Shown here piece by piece: positions 3,789 to 26,823 of a stretch of 64,000 nt of DNA. The first letter of the stretch is position 1, and each line of letters opens with the position of its first letter. This DNA is from a virus. Location of the stretch: positions 9,116 to 73,115 of the IMG/VR virus record IMGVR_UViG_3300014208_000032. One strand, written 5' to 3'. The position numbers and the translations under genes were made by a program. The notes beneath the pieces were generated by a model, which was given only the letters and a program-made list of their open reading frames with translations, did no database searches and was not told where the DNA came from.

Positions 3789-5483
3789 ATGAACAAAATA
3801 ATAAAAGTTGTTGACAGAAAAAGAGTAGAAAAAATTATAGATAATAAATCTGATAGTGAGATTTTTGAACAATGTTCTACTCACGATATAATATATTTTA
3901 TTTGTAATGTTTGTAATTTTGTGGGGAACAGAATTAAATCAAAATTTATAGAAGACGATTTTGTTTGCAAAAAATGTAAACTATCTTCAATATCAAAAGA
4001 GGAAAGAAAAAGAAGATTAAAATTAAATCAAGAAAAACAAAGGAAAAAATTTGATGGGCTTCTATATTTTCAGACAGAAGAGTTTAAAAAGAAATCAGAG
4101 GCAACAAGCTTAAAAAAATATGGCCATTCTAGTCCAAATTCTTCAGATGAAATAAAAGAAAAAAAAATATTATCTTATATTGAAAAATATGGCGTGGATA
4201 ATCCAATGAAACTGAAAGACATCTCAGATAAATTAAGAAAACCAAAAAAAAATAAACCAATAATTTCAAAAGAAGAAACTGAACAGAAAAGAATATTTAC
4301 TAATTTAAAAAATAGGGGTGTAAAATATTCCGGGCAAGATCCAATAGTAATAGAAAAAATTAAAAAAACAAACTTCCGCAACCATGAAGGAAAATACTTT
4401 TTTCAGACAGAGAAATTTATTTTAGAAAATAAAACAAGAAATTTGAATAAACAATATGATATTTTAAAAACAGAAAAATCAGGTTTTTCCCCTCTGTTTA
4501 CAAAAGAAGAATACAATGGAACTATTGGGTTTAAATATCCGTGGAGATGTTTGGAGTGTTCTAGTGAGTTTATTTCTTCTTTTGTTAATGGAATACCACC
4601 AAGGTGCCCAAAATGTTCTCCTGTTATAAAAAGTTATTCCCAGGCAGAAAAAGATATCAGAGTGTTTATTAGCGACGAATTAAGAGTTTTAACATCAAAA
4701 ATAAGACCAGAAAATGTTTTTGAGATTGATATATTTTGTAATGATTATAGTATTGGGTTTGAATATGATGGGTTATATTATCATTCTACAGACAAAATAG
4801 GGAAGGATTATCATCTAAACAAAACTAATTTTTTTAAAGAAAGGGGAATAAGCGTCTATCATATTTTTGAAGATGAATGGTTAAATAAAAAAGAAATAGT
4901 AAAATCAATCATAAAAACAAAATTAAATAAATTCGATAAAACATTTTATGGTAGAAAATGCACAATAAAAGAAATTAATTATAATGTTGCAAAAAGCTTT
5001 GTAGACGAAAATCATATTCAGGGTTATTCCAATTCTTGTATGAGGGTTGGGTTATTTTTTGAGGAAGAGTTGATTTCTGTTATGACTTTTGGAAAATCAA
5101 GATTTGATAAAAAATATGAATGGGAATTAATAAGGTTTTGCAACAAATTAGGATATAAAGTGGTTGGTGGGGCTGGAAAGTTGTTTAATTATTTTAAAAA
5201 TGAATATAATCCATCTAATATAATTAGTTATTGTGATTTAAGATATTTTGATGGCATTATGTATGAAAAAATAGGTATGAAATTTTCTCATATTTCTTCT
5301 CCAAATTATTTTTATTTTTTAAACAATAAAATAAGATTTTCAAGAAATAGATTTCAAAAACATAAATTAAAAAATATTTTAGAAACATTTGACGAAAACA
5401 AAACAGAAACAGAAAATATGTTGGATAATAAATATTTACAAATACACGACTGCGGAAACAAAGTATTTGTTTGGAATAAATAA
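3789..5483 (+). CDS. Hef-like homing endonuclease, paralogue of 1978..3714
   Basis: Same architecture; near-identical C-terminal ~190 aa ending DCGNKVFxWNK. Confidence 0.75.
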   Translation: MNKIIKVVDRKRVEKIIDNKSDSEIFEQCSTHDIIYFICNVCNFVGNRIKSKFIEDDFVCKKCKLSSISKEERKRRLKLNQEKQRKKFDGLLYFQTEEFKKKSEATSLKKYGHSSPNSSDEIKEKKILSYIEKYGVDNPMKLKDISDKLRKPKKNKPIISKEETEQKRIFTNLKNRGVKYSGQDPIVIEKIKKTNFRNHEGKYFFQTEKFILENKTRNLNKQYDILKTEKSGFSPLFTKEEYNGTIGFKYPWRCLECSSEFISSFVNGIPPRCPKCSPVIKSYSQAEKDIRVFISDELRVLTSKIRPENVFEIDIFCNDYSIGFEYDGLYYHSTDKIGKDYHLNKTNFFKERGISVYHIFEDEWLNKKEIVKSIIKTKLNKFDKTFYGRKCTIKEINYNVAKSFVDENHIQGYSNSCMRVGLFFEEELISVMTFGKSRFDKKYEWELIRFCNKLGYKVVGGAGKLFNYFKNEYNPSNIISYCDLRYFDGIMYEKIGMKFSHISSPNYFYFLNNKIRFSRNRFQKHKLKNILETFDENKTETENMLDNKYLQIHDCGNKVFVWNK

Positions 5484-24796: not shown

Positions 24797-25333
24797 ATGG
24801 ATTTTAAAGAAAAAGTTTTGGAATTACTTGAAGGAATTGTTAATCCAGATTTAAACAAAGTTTATGGTGGCAAGAAAACTGGAGCTGCTTATGTGAACAA
24901 ACAAGGAACAAGAATTTCTCTTGGTGCGGATGTTCCAAAAGATATTGTTCTTTGGATTAGAAAAAAAAATAAAGATGGCGTTCCTGTTGGAACAATTACT
25001 AATCAATTAAAAATCCACATTGAAAGATGGTTAACCAATCCTAAAAACAAAGAAGTATTAGCAAAGAAATATCAAGAACTTGTTGGTAAAGATTTTCTCA
25101 CACAAGAAGAGGCACTAAGAAAACCTGGTGGAATAGCTTCTGAACTTATTGAAATTGTTTTAAAAGGAAGAACCACAAAAGAAGGAGTTGCTGCGAAAGC
25201 AAAACAACAACCAATAACTAAGGTTTTTAATAAAGAAAAAGATTTTGAAGAAAGAGTTAAAAGACAGATGATTAAAAATCCAAAATTATCAGAAAAACAA
25301 ATTCGCTCTTCTTTGGGAAGGATTTTTAAATGA
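24797..25333 (+). CDS. hypothetical protein with capsid-targeting-like N-terminus
   Basis: MDFKEKVLELLE; AGGAG SD; motif upstream. Confidence 0.6.
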   Translation: MDFKEKVLELLEGIVNPDLNKVYGGKKTGAAYVNKQGTRISLGADVPKDIVLWIRKKNKDGVPVGTITNQLKIHIERWLTNPKNKEVLAKKYQELVGKDFLTQEEALRKPGGIASELIEIVLKGRTTKEGVAAKAKQQPITKVFNKEKDFEERVKRQMIKNPKLSEKQIRSSLGRIFK

Positions 25334-25683
25334 AAGGATTTATGGAAAAAAATAGAACAAAGATTATTGTCATTGTTGCTGTTTTGATTCTTGCAGCATC
25401 TGGAATCTGGGGATATAATTCTTATACCAACAATGGTTTGTTCGAAAAGTTTTGGAAATTCAACAAACAAACCACACAACAAAACGAACTTGTTTTGCAA
25501 AATTTCCCCAAAAAAATCTCTGACCCGTTTGTTGATGGAATTTCTCCAAAACAGTTGGAAACTGTAGACACTATCTTTGATTTAGTTTTCAAATATATAG
25601 ATAAGATATTATCATCATTAGCAACACTATTCGGCTTATTTGTTCTTTATAAAGAAATTAAAAAAGGAAAAAGGAAAACATAA
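25330..25683 (+). CDS. holin candidate (2 TM helices, basic tail)
   Basis: IIVIVAVLILAASGIW and ILSSLATLFGLFVLY, then KKGKRK; precedes putative lysin. Confidence 0.45.
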   Translation: MKGFMEKNRTKIIVIVAVLILAASGIWGYNSYTNNGLFEKFWKFNKQTTQQNELVLQNFPKKISDPFVDGISPKQLETVDTIFDLVFKYIDKILSSLATLFGLFVLYKEIKKGKRKT

Positions 25684-25684
25684 A

Positions 25685-26179
25685 ATGACAAGACAAAAAA
25701 ACTCAAAACTATATCCAGTTATTCAAAAAGAGGGCTGTTATATGCTATCTGGAATGAGAAAAGTTCAACTAATTACGGGAGATAAATTTGATTTTGATAA
25801 TCCAGAATTTGTTAATAAAACTTATGACGAACTATTAAAAAAAGAAATTATTAATTCAAGATGTTTAATGCAATCTCCTACTAAATTTTTTGAATATTTT
25901 AATTTAGATATTAGACAAAGAGTAAGGGCAGACGGAGTAGTTTTTGAATCTACCTATATTCCTTTTGAAAATGAATTTGAAGTTCTTTGTTTTAAAACAA
26001 GTGTTCTTCTTGGAAATTACACGCATTTTGTTCTTGGTAATGGGAAAGGTGGAATAGAGTTTGATCCAATGGGAGAAAGTGATGCTAAACCTTTTGGTTA
26101 TGTTTGTAACAAAGGAAAATTAAGTTCTAAAAGAATATTTAGTGTATTAAAATTTGGATCTGAGAAAAAGGAAATTTAA
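25685..26179 (+). CDS. DUF261-like / C39-like cysteine peptidase, candidate endolysin
   Basis: IQKEGCY...THFV...FDPMG (Q, C, H, D arrangement); ATG at 25685. Confidence 0.6.
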   Translation: MTRQKNSKLYPVIQKEGCYMLSGMRKVQLITGDKFDFDNPEFVNKTYDELLKKEIINSRCLMQSPTKFFEYFNLDIRQRVRADGVVFESTYIPFENEFEVLCFKTSVLLGNYTHFVLGNGKGGIEFDPMGESDAKPFGYVCNKGKLSSKRIFSVLKFGSEKKEI

Positions 26180-26778
26180 TGTGGAAGAAAATTCTATATT
26201 TGCCAAAATTAAAAAAAATATTATTTTTATCTTTGTTGTTGTTATTCTTACAATCACAATCGTTGTCGCAGGATATTATTCTATTACAAACGGTTCCAAC
26301 GGAAAAATTGATACCCTTAGTGCTTCAATATCAACAGATAGCAAAAGACTTGAAGAGTCAATCAGACGATTTGAAGAAACAACTGGACGAATTAATAAAC
26401 AACTCACAGATATCGGAGCAGAAATTTCAGGAATTAAATCAGAGATATCAAAACTTGGAGTCCAGACGAGCAATATTAGAGAAACAGTCAGAGGATTTGG
26501 TAAAACTTTCGGAGAATTTGGCAATGAACTCAATAGGTTTGGAAACTCATTATCAGATATTAAGTCAAGAGTTTCAGGTATTCAATCAGGACTTTCAAAC
26601 ATTCAAACAGGACTTGATGACTTTGATGTCGCAAATAAAAAATTTAGTGATATTATCAACGGAAATTAACAACCAGAATAAATTTTTAACAAACGCTGTC
26701 GTTATTGGTGGCAGCGTTGTTGGTGGCTTAGTAGCTGTAGATGTTATTATAAATATACTACTGCTTTTAAAAAAGTAA
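26179..26778 (+). CDS. secreted coiled-coil protein with C-terminal hydrophobic helix (o-spanin-like role)
   Basis: Signal peptide KKILFLSLLLLFLQSQSLS, heptad repeats, C-terminal AVVIGGSVVGGLVAVDVIINILLLL. Confidence 0.65.
   Translation: MWKKILYLPKLKKILFLSLLLLFLQSQSLSQDIILLQTVPTEKLIPLVLQYQQIAKDLKSQSDDLKKQLDELINNSQISEQKFQELNQRYQNLESRRAILEKQSEDLVKLSENLAMNSIGLETHYQILSQEFQVFNQDFQTFKQDLMTLMSQIKNLVILSTEINNQNKFLTNAVVIGGSVVGGLVAVDVIINILLLLKK
26181..26669 (+). CDS. N-anchored coiled-coil membrane protein (i-spanin-like), overlapping in another frame
   Basis: GTG start at 26181; TM IIFIFVVVILTITIVVAGYY; long heptad pattern. Confidence 0.65.
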   Translation: MEENSIFAKIKKNIIFIFVVVILTITIVVAGYYSITNGSNGKIDTLSASISTDSKRLEESIRRFEETTGRINKQLTDIGAEISGIKSEISKLGVQTSNIRETVRGFGKTFGEFGNELNRFGNSLSDIKSRVSGIQSGLSNIQTGLDDFDVANKKFSDIINGN

Positions 26779-26795: not shown

Positions 26796-26823
26796 AACCT
26801 AAGTACTCTTTTGTATTTAGGTT
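26796..26823 (+). terminator. intrinsic terminator of lysis-like cassette
   Basis: AACCTAAGTAC/GTATTTAGGTT stem followed by T run. Confidence 0.55.

What the first reader, a model, noticed from the sequence alone, without database searches (positions are those of the whole stretch)
26177..26778. Dual-coding DNA: two membrane coiled-coil proteins in different frames from one TAATGTG junction (non-lipoprotein spanin pair?)
Seen: in TAATGTG (26177-26183) the peptidase stop (TAA), an ATG (26179) and a GTG (26181) overlap behind one AAGGA SD. Both frames stay open for 489 shared nt in AT-rich DNA and both look like real proteins. Frame A (162 aa) has an N-terminal TM and a clean heptad repeat. Frame B (199 aa) has a signal peptide, a Q/L/E heptad repeat and a C-terminal hydrophobic helix. 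The hydrophobic N-termini and coiled coils come from the same bases. Known: lambda Rz/Rz1 are embedded genes, but Rz1 is a short lipoprotein starting well inside Rz. Here neither protein has any Cys, the overlap begins at the first codon and the partners are similar in length. Inference: an undescribed spanin-like membrane-fusion pair forming a hetero coiled coil, with ratio set by start choice.
Basis: partly seen in the sequence, partly recalled or inferred. Interest (0 to 1): 0.8.

Follow-up and report, generated by a model that had tools for sequence, protein, structure and literature searches.

The report
Two membrane proteins, one DNA stretch
About 490 bases of this large uncultured phage are read in two reading frames, from start codons two bases apart, to make two different membrane-anchored rod-like proteins; three distant relatives keep the same layout, so this is real dual coding, not chance, although what the pair does (probably cell-envelope work at lysis) is still unproven.

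Summary
Observation confirmed. Frame A (26181-26669, 162 aa) and frame B (26179-26778, 199 aa) overlap for 489 nt behind one AAGGA; B's ATG overlaps the stop of the upstream DUF261 gene.

Dual coding is strongly supported. An exhaustive search found three distant loci (23-35% protein identity) with the same layout:
- both frames are open;
- the starts lie 2-4 nt apart behind one SD;
- A has an N-terminal TM;
- B has a signal-peptide-like N-terminus, an invariant Leu heptad ladder and a C-terminal TM beyond A's stop (the fourth copy, L002, is cut by its contig end inside the hydrophobic tail).

Chance openness of the second frame is about 1e-6 per locus. It stays at 1e-2 to 5e-5 when only each gene's own codons are shuffled. 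Synonymous variation is suppressed in both frames (z 7.3 and 5.5) but not in B's non-overlapped tail (z 1.4). B is the better-conserved frame, while A has the more genome-like codon usage.

The spanin reading is only partly supported. The pair ends a lysis-like cassette here and follows a small 2-TM gene in one relative. There is no lipoprotein, no Cys and no homology to lambda Rz, and the context differs in two relatives. A hetero coiled coil is untested.

The scan noted similar twin-start pairs before on other DNA (e1-3430461, e1-5249955, e1-3417986, e1-5467027); those are not the same sequences.

The parts
25330..25683 (+). 117-aa protein with an N-terminal and a C-terminal hydrophobic helix and a basic tail; holin candidate (inference)
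   Evidence: ORF and translation; no family hit
25685..26179 (+). DUF261 protein (ORF opens at TTG 25640; ATG at 25685); putative wall-degrading enzyme (inference only). Its TAA stop overlaps B's ATG.
   Evidence: Pfam PF03196, E 5e-16, above cut-off; tblastn relatives only in Borrelia/Borreliella plasmids
26168..26172 (+). Shared Shine-Dalgarno AAGGA, 6 nt before B's ATG and 8 nt before A's GTG
   Evidence: equivalent SD plus twin starts in L002, L003 and L006
26179..26778 (+). Frame B gene, 199 aa: signal-peptide-like N-terminus, long heptad (leucine-zipper) helix, C-terminal TM, KK tail
   Evidence: conserved in L002, L003 and L006
26179..26268 (+). B residues 1-30: basic n-region, 11-residue hydrophobic core, small residues at -3/-1 before invariant Q31. 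Predicted Sec signal peptide (inference, no SignalP run).
26181..26669 (+). Frame A gene, 162 aa (GTG start): N-terminal TM anchor, two heptad helices with a break near residue 105, conserved C-terminal D-x-x-N-x-x-F motif
   Evidence: full-length homologues P0005, P0021 and P0035
26220..26279 (+). A residues 14-33: signal-anchor TM with a basic N-flank, so N-in/C-out is inferred
   Evidence: invariant A30 and Y32
26670..26778 (+). B-only tail beyond A's stop. It holds the QN.FL motif and the TM (about 26695-26769) with a buried acidic residue.
   Evidence: Conserved as protein with a free third codon position; coding-like score in frame B
26796..26823 (+). Terminator-like hairpin followed by a T-rich run, 18 nt after B's stop, between convergent genes

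Best explanation
This is a genuine, conserved dual-coding locus. One late mRNA segment is translated in two frames from twin start codons behind a single Shine-Dalgarno (B: ATG 26179; A: GTG 26181).

B (199 aa) is exported by an N-terminal signal peptide and stays anchored by a C-terminal TM (type I, N-out). Its roughly 130-residue leucine-zipper helix would project into the periplasm. A (162 aa) is anchored by an N-terminal TM (type II, N-in) and puts two heptad helices on the same side of the membrane.

The heptad register of both proteins is written by the same bases: B's TTR leucine codons read as NTT (Ile/Val/Leu/Phe) in A. B has ATG in 4 of 4 loci and the better spacing, and it is the better-conserved frame. 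A has GTG in 3 of 4. B is therefore probably the major product and A the minor one.

Shown (computationally): the two frames, their conservation, and selection on both. Inferred: that both are translated, their topology and their ratio.

Function (inferred, about 0.4): an envelope-acting pair used at or around lysis. It would be either a lipoprotein-free, spanin-like device bridging or attacking the outer layers, or a regulator of the holin/lysin step. In the window it is the last, translationally coupled gene of a cassette made of a 2-TM protein, a DUF261 protein and the pair.

My odds: dual coding under selection 0.93; both products made 0.85; lysis-related function 0.4.
For: (1) Homologues. 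An exhaustive phmmer search with A found three full-length relatives of 159-162 aa. In each encoding locus the +1 frame is also open over the whole gene. It starts with ATG 2-4 nt from A's start behind one SD, and it ends in a hydrophobic TM-like tail beyond A's stop. In L002 that tail is cut by the contig end.

(2) Chance openness. P(B open | A residues, local codon usage) is 1.0e-6, 1.1e-6, 5e-7 and 1.4e-6. P(A open | B residues) is 2e-10, 5e-7, 8e-7 and 1e-9. When only each gene's own synonymous codons are shuffled, P is 0.012 to 5e-5 for B and 2.7e-3 to 2e-4 for A.

(3) Synonymous-site suppression. Identical-residue column pairs keep the same codon 154 times against 101 expected in A (z 7.3). 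In B's overlap the figures are 137 against 96 (z 5.5). In the B-only tail they are 21 against 17.5 (z 1.4).

(4) B-only tail. It is conserved as protein (8 of 14 shared residues between the window and L002, against 35% overall). Its third codon position is saturated, with excess identity 0.03 against 0.18 and 0.25 at positions 1 and 2.

(5) Protein features. B has 20 invariant columns, including Leu at 86, 93, 100, 114, 121, 128, 149 and 156. AF2 gives one helix 41-198 with pLDDT 80-90. A has its TM, invariant A30/Y32 and a D149-N152-F155 motif. TM and heptad features are present in all loci.

(6) Gene layout. A terminator-like hairpin lies 18 nt after B's stop. B's ATG overlaps the stop of the DUF261 gene.

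(7) Lysis context. A 2-TM protein and DUF261 lie upstream in the window, and a small 2-TM ORF ends 9 nt before the pair in L002. PHROG 739 'Rz-like spanin' is hit weakly by 3 of 4 A proteins, best E 1.6e-4. No lipobox ORF lies next to the cassette in the 160 kb held.
Against: Only four distinct loci are known, so the statistics rest on four lineages, and the six pairwise comparisons are not independent. A has no non-overlapped part, so its case rests on openness, a start codon and constraint on B's third positions.

Against a lysis role: in L003 the pair follows dNMP kinase and ClpP-like genes, and in L006 it stands alone between divergent and convergent genes. DUF261 has no demonstrated lytic activity. 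Neither protein has an outer-membrane anchor or any Cys in the mature part. There is no profile similarity to lambda Rz. All other family and PDB hits are generic coiled-coil matches. The host, and so whether it has an outer membrane, is not established.
Confidence: 0.8

Rival explanations
1. Real dual coding, but the pair is not a lysis or spanin device. It would be two inner-membrane coiled-coil proteins serving another envelope task, such as superinfection exclusion, anchoring or organising replication or assembly at the membrane, or remodelling the periplasm.
For: The neighbourhood is not conserved. L003 has dNMP kinase, ClpP-like, RecA-like and clamp-loader-like genes around the pair, and L006 has RNR and unknown genes. 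The pair is the only thing shared at blastp E 1e-4 between the window's genome and the relatives' flanks, as expected for a self-contained module of any function. There is no outer-membrane anchor and no relation to Rz.
Against: In the window B is translationally coupled to the last gene of a cassette of a 2-TM protein plus DUF261. L002 has a holin-sized 2-TM ORF immediately upstream. Size and topology of A match i-spanins, and 3 of 4 A proteins hit PHROG 739 weakly.
Confidence: 0.4
2. Only frame B is a functional gene. Frame A stays open as a side effect of B's composition (Leu, Gln, Glu and Lys use purine-ending codons, so few T-ending codons can create A-frame stops), and any A product is noise.
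For: B is the dominant frame in evolution. Excess nucleotide identity is 0.26, 0.24 and 0.12 at B positions 1, 2 and 3, so A's first position is the least conserved. B has its own conserved tail. A's AF2 model is poor, pLDDT 56. A uses GTG in 3 of 4 loci.
Against: Even with B's own codon counts kept, A is open by chance with P of only 2e-4 to 2.7e-3 in each of four loci. B's synonymous sites are constrained in the overlap (z 5.5) but not in the tail (z 1.4). A's start codon is the first possible one in its ORF and sits behind the SD in L002, L003 and L006. A's codon usage is closer to the genomes' norm than B's: z -0.6, -1.6 and -3.4 against -4.0, -7.0 and -4.4. The invariant TTGATG gives Asp in A, which needs TTG rather than TTA in all four loci.
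Confidence: 0.07
3. There is one protein made by a programmed frameshift or hidden by an assembly indel. Translation would start in one frame and shift to the other (for example A's body joined to B's TM tail), so the two full-length ORFs are not separate genes.
For: An A6T3 run at 26637-26645 reads A AAA AAT in frame B, which is a -1 slippery shape. B's tail scores as coding while A ends 109 nt earlier.
Against: The run is not conserved in the relatives. The A-minus-B coding score rises steadily up to A's stop, with no switch point. A shift needs only a short overlap, not two frames open over 160 codons with their own start codons in four loci. Four independent assemblies agree on the layout.
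Confidence: 0.02
4. Only frame A is real and the long B ORF is a chance or compositional artefact of an AT-rich coiled-coil gene.
For: In the window A fits the phage's codon model (z -0.6), while B's overlap fits the +1 off-frame model best.
Against: B is open in all four loci at about 1e-6 each. It is more conserved than A. It also has a conserved non-overlapping TM tail followed by the terminator.
Confidence: 0.01

Closest known systems
Two-component spanins with embedded or overlapped genes (lambda Rz/Rz1, P2 lysB/lysC; Kongari et al. 2018, PMC6139136)
   Same: Two envelope proteins come from one stretch of DNA, with the second in the +1 frame, at the end of a lysis-type cassette. A has i-spanin size and topology: an N-terminal TMD and two periplasmic coiled-coil segments with a break.
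   Different: The partner is not a short proline-rich lipoprotein that starts deep inside the i-spanin gene. It is a longer, fully helical protein that starts 2 nt before A, covers all of it and extends beyond it. It has a signal-peptidase-I-type signal, no lipobox and a C-terminal TMD. There are no periplasmic Cys and no sequence relation to Rz. [quoted passage not shown]
Unimolecular spanin (T1 gp11; described in PMC6139136)
   Same: B combines an N-terminal export signal with a C-terminal TMD, and it is the last gene of the cassette.
   Different: gp11 has a lipobox and a mainly beta-strand periplasmic domain. B has no lipobox Cys and is one long alpha-helix. It also comes with a second protein encoded in the same DNA.
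Classical same-strand overlapping phage and virus genes (phiX174 D/E and A/B; paramyxovirus P/C with neighbouring alternative starts). Named from my own knowledge plus the reviews listed.
   Same: Two proteins are read from two frames of one mRNA. Selection on both frames suppresses synonymous change.
   Different: The overlap here is about 160 codons and covers one gene completely. Both starts share one SD within 2-4 nt. Both products are predicted to be ordered, membrane-anchored coiled coils, rather than one ordered and one short or disordered protein. The locus sits in a dsDNA phage of over 160 kb that is under no obvious pressure for genome compression.

Membership tests
Two-component spanin (i-spanin + o-spanin) | i-spanin: N-terminal TMD followed by a periplasmic, largely coiled-coil domain | tested here: met
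   A has a TM at residues 14-32, helices 40-104 and 110-159, and heptad periodicity in all four loci
Two-component spanin (i-spanin + o-spanin) | o-spanin: outer-membrane lipoprotein with a signal-peptidase-II signal and lipobox Cys | tested here: not met
   The window's A and B have no Cys. The only Cys in any homologue lies in the L006 signal core, without a lipobox. No lipobox ORF lies beside the cassette.
Two-component spanin (i-spanin + o-spanin) | Genes lie in or next to the lysis cassette (holin, endolysin) | tested here: inconclusive
   In the window a 2-TM protein and DUF261 lie upstream, and L002 has a 2-TM ORF upstream. L003 and L006 have no recognisable lysis genes nearby. DUF261 has no proven lytic activity.
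Two-component spanin (i-spanin + o-spanin) | Sequence or profile relation to a described spanin family | tested here: not met
   hhalign against lambda Rz gives probability below 1%. PHROG 739 and 89 'Rz-like spanin' hits reach only E 1e-4 to 3e-3, among many generic coiled-coil hits.
Two-component spanin (i-spanin + o-spanin) | Outer-membrane disruption at lysis (complements lambda Rz/Rz1) | not testable with these tools
   Needs genetics
Unimolecular spanin (T1 gp11 type) | N-terminal lipoprotein signal plus C-terminal TMD in one chain | tested here: not met
   The C-terminal TMD is present and the signal is present, but there is no lipobox
Same-strand overlapping (dual-coding) gene pair | Both frames kept open in diverged homologues beyond chance | tested here: met
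   Four loci, with P of 1e-6 to 1e-10 each under local codon usage and 1e-2 to 5e-5 under own-codon shuffles
Same-strand overlapping (dual-coding) gene pair | Synonymous variation suppressed in each frame within the overlap only | tested here: met
   z 7.3 for A, 5.5 for B's overlap and 1.4 for the B-only tail. Third-position excess identity is 0.11 in the overlap and 0.03 in the tail.
Same-strand overlapping (dual-coding) gene pair | Each frame has its own start codon with a ribosome-binding site | tested here: met
   Twin starts lie 2-4 nt apart behind AAGGA, AGGAGG, GAGGAG and AAGGAG
Same-strand overlapping (dual-coding) gene pair | Both products detected | not testable with these tools
Programmed ribosomal frameshift product | Conserved slippery site and a shift point where the coding signal changes frame | tested here: not met
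   The A6T3 run is not conserved and there is no switch in coding score before A's stop

The most novel reading that the evidence does not exclude
A conserved family of 'twin-start', fully overlapped genes in large uncultured phages makes two ordered, oppositely anchored periplasmic coiled-coil proteins from the same bases. The genetic code hard-wires a shared heptad register (TTR Leu in one frame, NTT Ile/Val in the other). The two proteins work together as a lipoprotein-free device that bridges or breaches the envelope at lysis. That would be a new spanin class, and together with the similar pairs noted elsewhere in this scan, a recurrent solution.
Probability: 0.3. Interest if true: 0.9.

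Novelty: new variant of a known kind. Interest (0 to 1): 0.78.

Why it matters
Long same-strand overlaps in which both products are ordered proteins are very rare in dsDNA phages and bacteria, and gene callers remove them by design. Here the same DNA is annotated as A by one source and as B by another.

This locus shows about 160 codons under selection in two frames. It has a simple initiation arrangement (two starts behind one SD) and a transparent coding trick that gives both proteins a heptad repeat.

It offers a clean natural system for studying start-site partitioning and the evolution of overprinted genes. The usual rule that the newcomer is disordered does not seem to hold here.

If the lysis reading is right, it would also explain how some phages without a lipoprotein spanin deal with the outer layers, an open point raised by Kongari et al. 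(PMC6139136).

Tried and rejected
- Close-relative scans found nothing. These were IMG/VR with A, B and the DUF261 protein; metagenome and genome contigs with the window's B and L003's B; and IMG/VR with L003's and L002's B.
- A degenerate DNA motif scan gave the L006 record plus one chance hit, L009.
- Word-index protein searches with A and B found nothing. With the B alignment they found only P0036, the L006 B protein.
- INPHARED phages have no match to A, B or DUF261.
- Clusters at 90% identity are all singletons.
- Complex prediction on A plus mature B gave no verdict: score 0.06, and the controls were not run. This counts neither for nor against binding.
- The ESM Atlas gave only look-alikes scoring 0.81-0.86, which are leads only.
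- PDB profile searches, NCBIfam and Pfam gave generic coiled-coil hits only.
- The PDB sequence search with DUF261 found nothing.
- A literature search on DUF261 was uninformative.
- Reaching spirochaete genomes through a Borreliella plasmid handle was not possible.
- Considered and rejected: an alternative genetic code, because standard-code ORFs cover 86% of the genome; and a frameshift fusion.
Full report
**What is in the sequence**

- The window is part of a 159.8-kb IMG/VR virus record, estimated 69% complete. It has 29-30% G+C, and ordinary standard-code ORFs cover 86% of it.
- At 26177-26183 the letters TAATGTG hold three signals: the stop of the upstream gene, an ATG (26179) and a GTG (26181). 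AAGGA lies at 26168-26172.
- The ATG opens frame B (26179-26778, 199 aa). The GTG opens frame A (26181-26669, 162 aa). B is the +1 frame of A, and they share 489 nt.
- A has one N-terminal TM. B has a short N-terminal hydrophobic core and a C-terminal TM that lies beyond A's stop. Neither has Cys. Both show a sharp 3.5-residue hydrophobic period.
- A terminator-like hairpin (26796-26823) follows B's stop by 18 nt, ahead of a convergent cupin gene.

**Is the overlap more than chance in this genome?**

- In 123 other long ORFs of the phage, the +1 frame has a stop every 13 codons. Its longest open run is 131 codons, with a median of 41.
- Given A's residues and the phage's codon usage, 10.8 stops are expected in B's frame, and P(none) = 9e-7. 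Given B's residues, P(A open) = 2e-10.
- A avoids NTA and NTG codons and over-uses GTC, ATC and TCA.
- A single window cannot settle this, because a scan of many windows will meet such odds by luck.
- Codon models were also ambiguous. A fits the phage's coding model (z -0.6). B's overlapped part fits the '+1 off-frame' model best. B's tail beyond A's stop looks weakly coding.

**Relatives decide it**

- Close-relative searches were empty.
- The exhaustive phmmer search with A gave many generic coiled-coil hits (sampled). It also gave three full-length matches of 159-162 aa: P0005, P0021 and P0035.
- Their encoding contigs are L002, L003 (identical DNA in L004 and L005) and L006 (the same as L007 and L010).
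- All three carry a second ORF in the +1 frame:
  - It spans the whole A gene.
  - It starts with ATG 2-4 nt from A's start behind one SD. L006 has the same ATGTG; L002 and L003 have (A/G)TGAATG.
  - It has a basic and hydrophobic signal-like N-terminus.
  - It runs on past A's stop into a hydrophobic TM-like tail. L003 and L006 hold the whole TM; L002 is cut by its contig end inside it.
- Protein identity to the window is 22-30% for A and 23-35% for B.
- B has 20 invariant columns. They include a leucine ladder at 86, 93, 100, 114, 121, 128, 149 and 156, and Q31 at the predicted signal cleavage site.
- A has 8 invariant columns. They include A30 and Y32 at the end of its TM, and D149, N152 and F155 near the C-terminus.

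**Statistics over the four loci**

- P(B open | A residues, local codon usage) is 5e-7 to 1.4e-6 in each locus. P(A open | B residues) is 2e-10 to 8e-7.
- I also ran the harshest null I could think of: keep each gene's own codon counts and only permute synonymous codons among positions. The other frame is then open with P = 0.012, 5e-5, 1e-4 and 2.5e-4 for B, and 6.5e-4, 2.7e-3, 2.65e-3 and 2e-4 for A.
- At this divergence synonymous sites should be saturated. Yet where two sequences share a residue, they also share the codon far too often:

| Region | Same codon, observed | Expected | z |
|---|---|---|---|
| Frame A | 154 | 101 | 7.3 |
| Frame B, overlap | 137 | 96 | 5.5 |
| Frame B, tail (B only) | 21 | 17.5 | 1.4 |

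- The six pairs from four sequences are not independent, so the z values are optimistic. The contrast with the tail is still the expected signature of two-frame selection.
- Excess nucleotide identity over composition is 0.26, 0.24 and 0.12 at B's codon positions 1, 2 and 3 in the overlap. In the tail it is 0.18, 0.25 and 0.03.
- So B behaves like the dominant coding frame, and its wobble position is freer where A is absent.
- The B-only tail is conserved as protein through synonymous differences. That is independent proof that B is read.
- For A the most telling single site is the invariant TTGATG. B would tolerate TTA for Leu, but A needs the G for its Asp.
- Codon usage is closer to each genome's norm in A than in B's overlapped part, while B's tail is normal. 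By the usual criterion for overlapping genes this would make A the older frame and the overlapped body of B the newcomer. That is speculation.

**How the coding trick works (directly from the sequence)**

- B's heptad leucines are mostly TTR codons. A reads the same bases as NTT (Ile, Val, Leu or Phe). Both proteins therefore get hydrophobic residues at the same heptad positions.
- B's preference for purine-ending codons (Leu TTR, Gln, Glu, Lys) gives A a purine-rich first position (65-80%). This explains A's Ser/Gly/Ile/Glu/Asn-rich make-up.
- Over A's TM, A's NTT codons become TTN (Phe/Leu) in B, which produces B's signal-peptide core.

**Predicted proteins**

- AF2 with the four-row alignments gives B as a helix 8-30 plus one continuous helix 41-198, with pLDDT 80-90 in the middle.
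- It gives A as helices 3-36, 40-104 and 110-159 at low confidence, pLDDT 56.
- The topology below is inferred from flanking charges and hydrophobic lengths, not from a predictor.
- B looks like a cleaved Sec signal (small residues at -3 and -1 before the invariant Gln), then an N-out rod, a C-terminal TM and a short basic cytoplasmic end.
- A looks like an N-in signal anchor with its helices outside.
- Both rods would sit on the periplasmic face of the cytoplasmic membrane with opposite chain polarity.
- Whether they pair is unknown.

**Function**

- In the window the pair closes a same-strand run of a 117-aa 2-TM protein with a basic tail, a DUF261 protein (Pfam E 5e-16) and the pair. B's ATG overlaps the DUF261 stop.
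- In the collections searched, DUF261 relatives occur only on Borrelia and Borreliella plasmids, next to phage-derived genes. Their activity is unknown.
- In L002 a small 2-TM ORF ends 9 nt before the pair. In L006 an 84-aa 2-TM gene lies 0.8 kb away on the other strand.
- In L003 the neighbours are dNMP-kinase-like and ClpP-like genes. In L006 they are an RNR and unknown genes.
- Three of four A proteins hit PHROG 739 'Rz-like spanin', but only at E 1e-4 to 3e-3 and among tape-measure and other coiled-coil noise.
- hhalign against lambda Rz is negative.
- No lipobox-bearing ORF lies near the cassette.
- I therefore put a lysis-related envelope role at about 0.4. Within that I cannot separate a spanin-like bridge from a regulator of the holin/lysin step.
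[quoted passage not shown] My literature searches found no description of a pair like this one.

**Comparison and novelty**

- The locus works like the embedded spanin genes in one respect: two envelope proteins from one DNA stretch, with the second in the +1 frame.
- It fails the defining o-spanin test because there is no lipoprotein. I do not file it as a spanin.
- It is a well-supported member of the wider class of same-strand overlapping genes, with unusual traits:
  - the smaller gene is completely covered;
  - twin starts lie behind one SD;
  - both products are ordered, membrane-anchored coiled coils;
  - the host genome is a large dsDNA phage with no obvious need to save space.
- Earlier notes of this scan describe similar 'twin-start' pairs in other phages. 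Sequence look-ups show they are not the same family members. I did not test them, so they add context, not evidence.
- Annotation pipelines disagree on the very same DNA. JGI calls the A frame (P0035), while the NCBI WGS record JFJP01 carries the B frame (P0036).

**Verdict**

- Dual coding is real with high confidence (about 0.93 for selection on both frames).
- The spanin-like and hetero-coiled-coil interpretation remains a hypothesis.
- Interest is high because of the clean, conserved and mechanistically transparent two-frame design.

Noticed in passing
window 26276-26533 (-); L002 107-649 (-): An antisense frame over the pair is also unusually open: 85 aa in the window, and 180 aa with no stop in L002. 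It has 3-6 stops in the other loci, so it looks like a compositional by-product of the heptad DNA and not a third gene.
   Followed up: partly
L003 5521-5565: B's C-terminal TM coding tail overlaps the 3' end of the convergent 233-aa gene by 45 nt on the opposite strand.
   Followed up: no
L006/L007 4999-5574: The same DNA is annotated differently by different sources. JGI calls the A frame (P0035, 162 aa), while an NCBI WGS record (JFJP01) carries the B frame (P0036, 191 aa). Neither lists both.
   Followed up: yes
window 25685-26179: DUF261 relatives (about 32-34% identity) turn up only on Borrelia/Borreliella linear plasmids among 72,556 plasmids, and in none of 50,697 phage records. On lp54-type plasmids the gene follows a 52-aa ORF, and a phage terminase gene lies about 3 kb further on. 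This hints at a spirochaete link for the phage.
   Followed up: partly
window genome versus L002, L003, L006 flanks: At blastp E 1e-4 the A/B pair is the only thing shared between the 160-kb record and the 5-kb flanks of the relatives. The pair is therefore better conserved, or more mobile, than its neighbours.
   Followed up: partly
window 26342-26383 and 26553-26594: There are weak 21-nt tandem duplications (71-76% identity) inside the pair. Each is one heptad long, which suggests growth of the coiled coil by heptad duplication that lengthens both proteins at once.
   Followed up: no
window 4175-4381 (-): A 68-aa ORF has a lipoprotein-like start (basic residues, hydrophobic core, IGSC). It probably lies inside a larger gene's other frame. 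It was not examined as a possible o-spanin.
   Followed up: no
L006 6378-6632 (-): An 84-aa gene with two TM helices (holin-sized) lies 0.8 kb downstream of the pair on the opposite strand.
   Followed up: no
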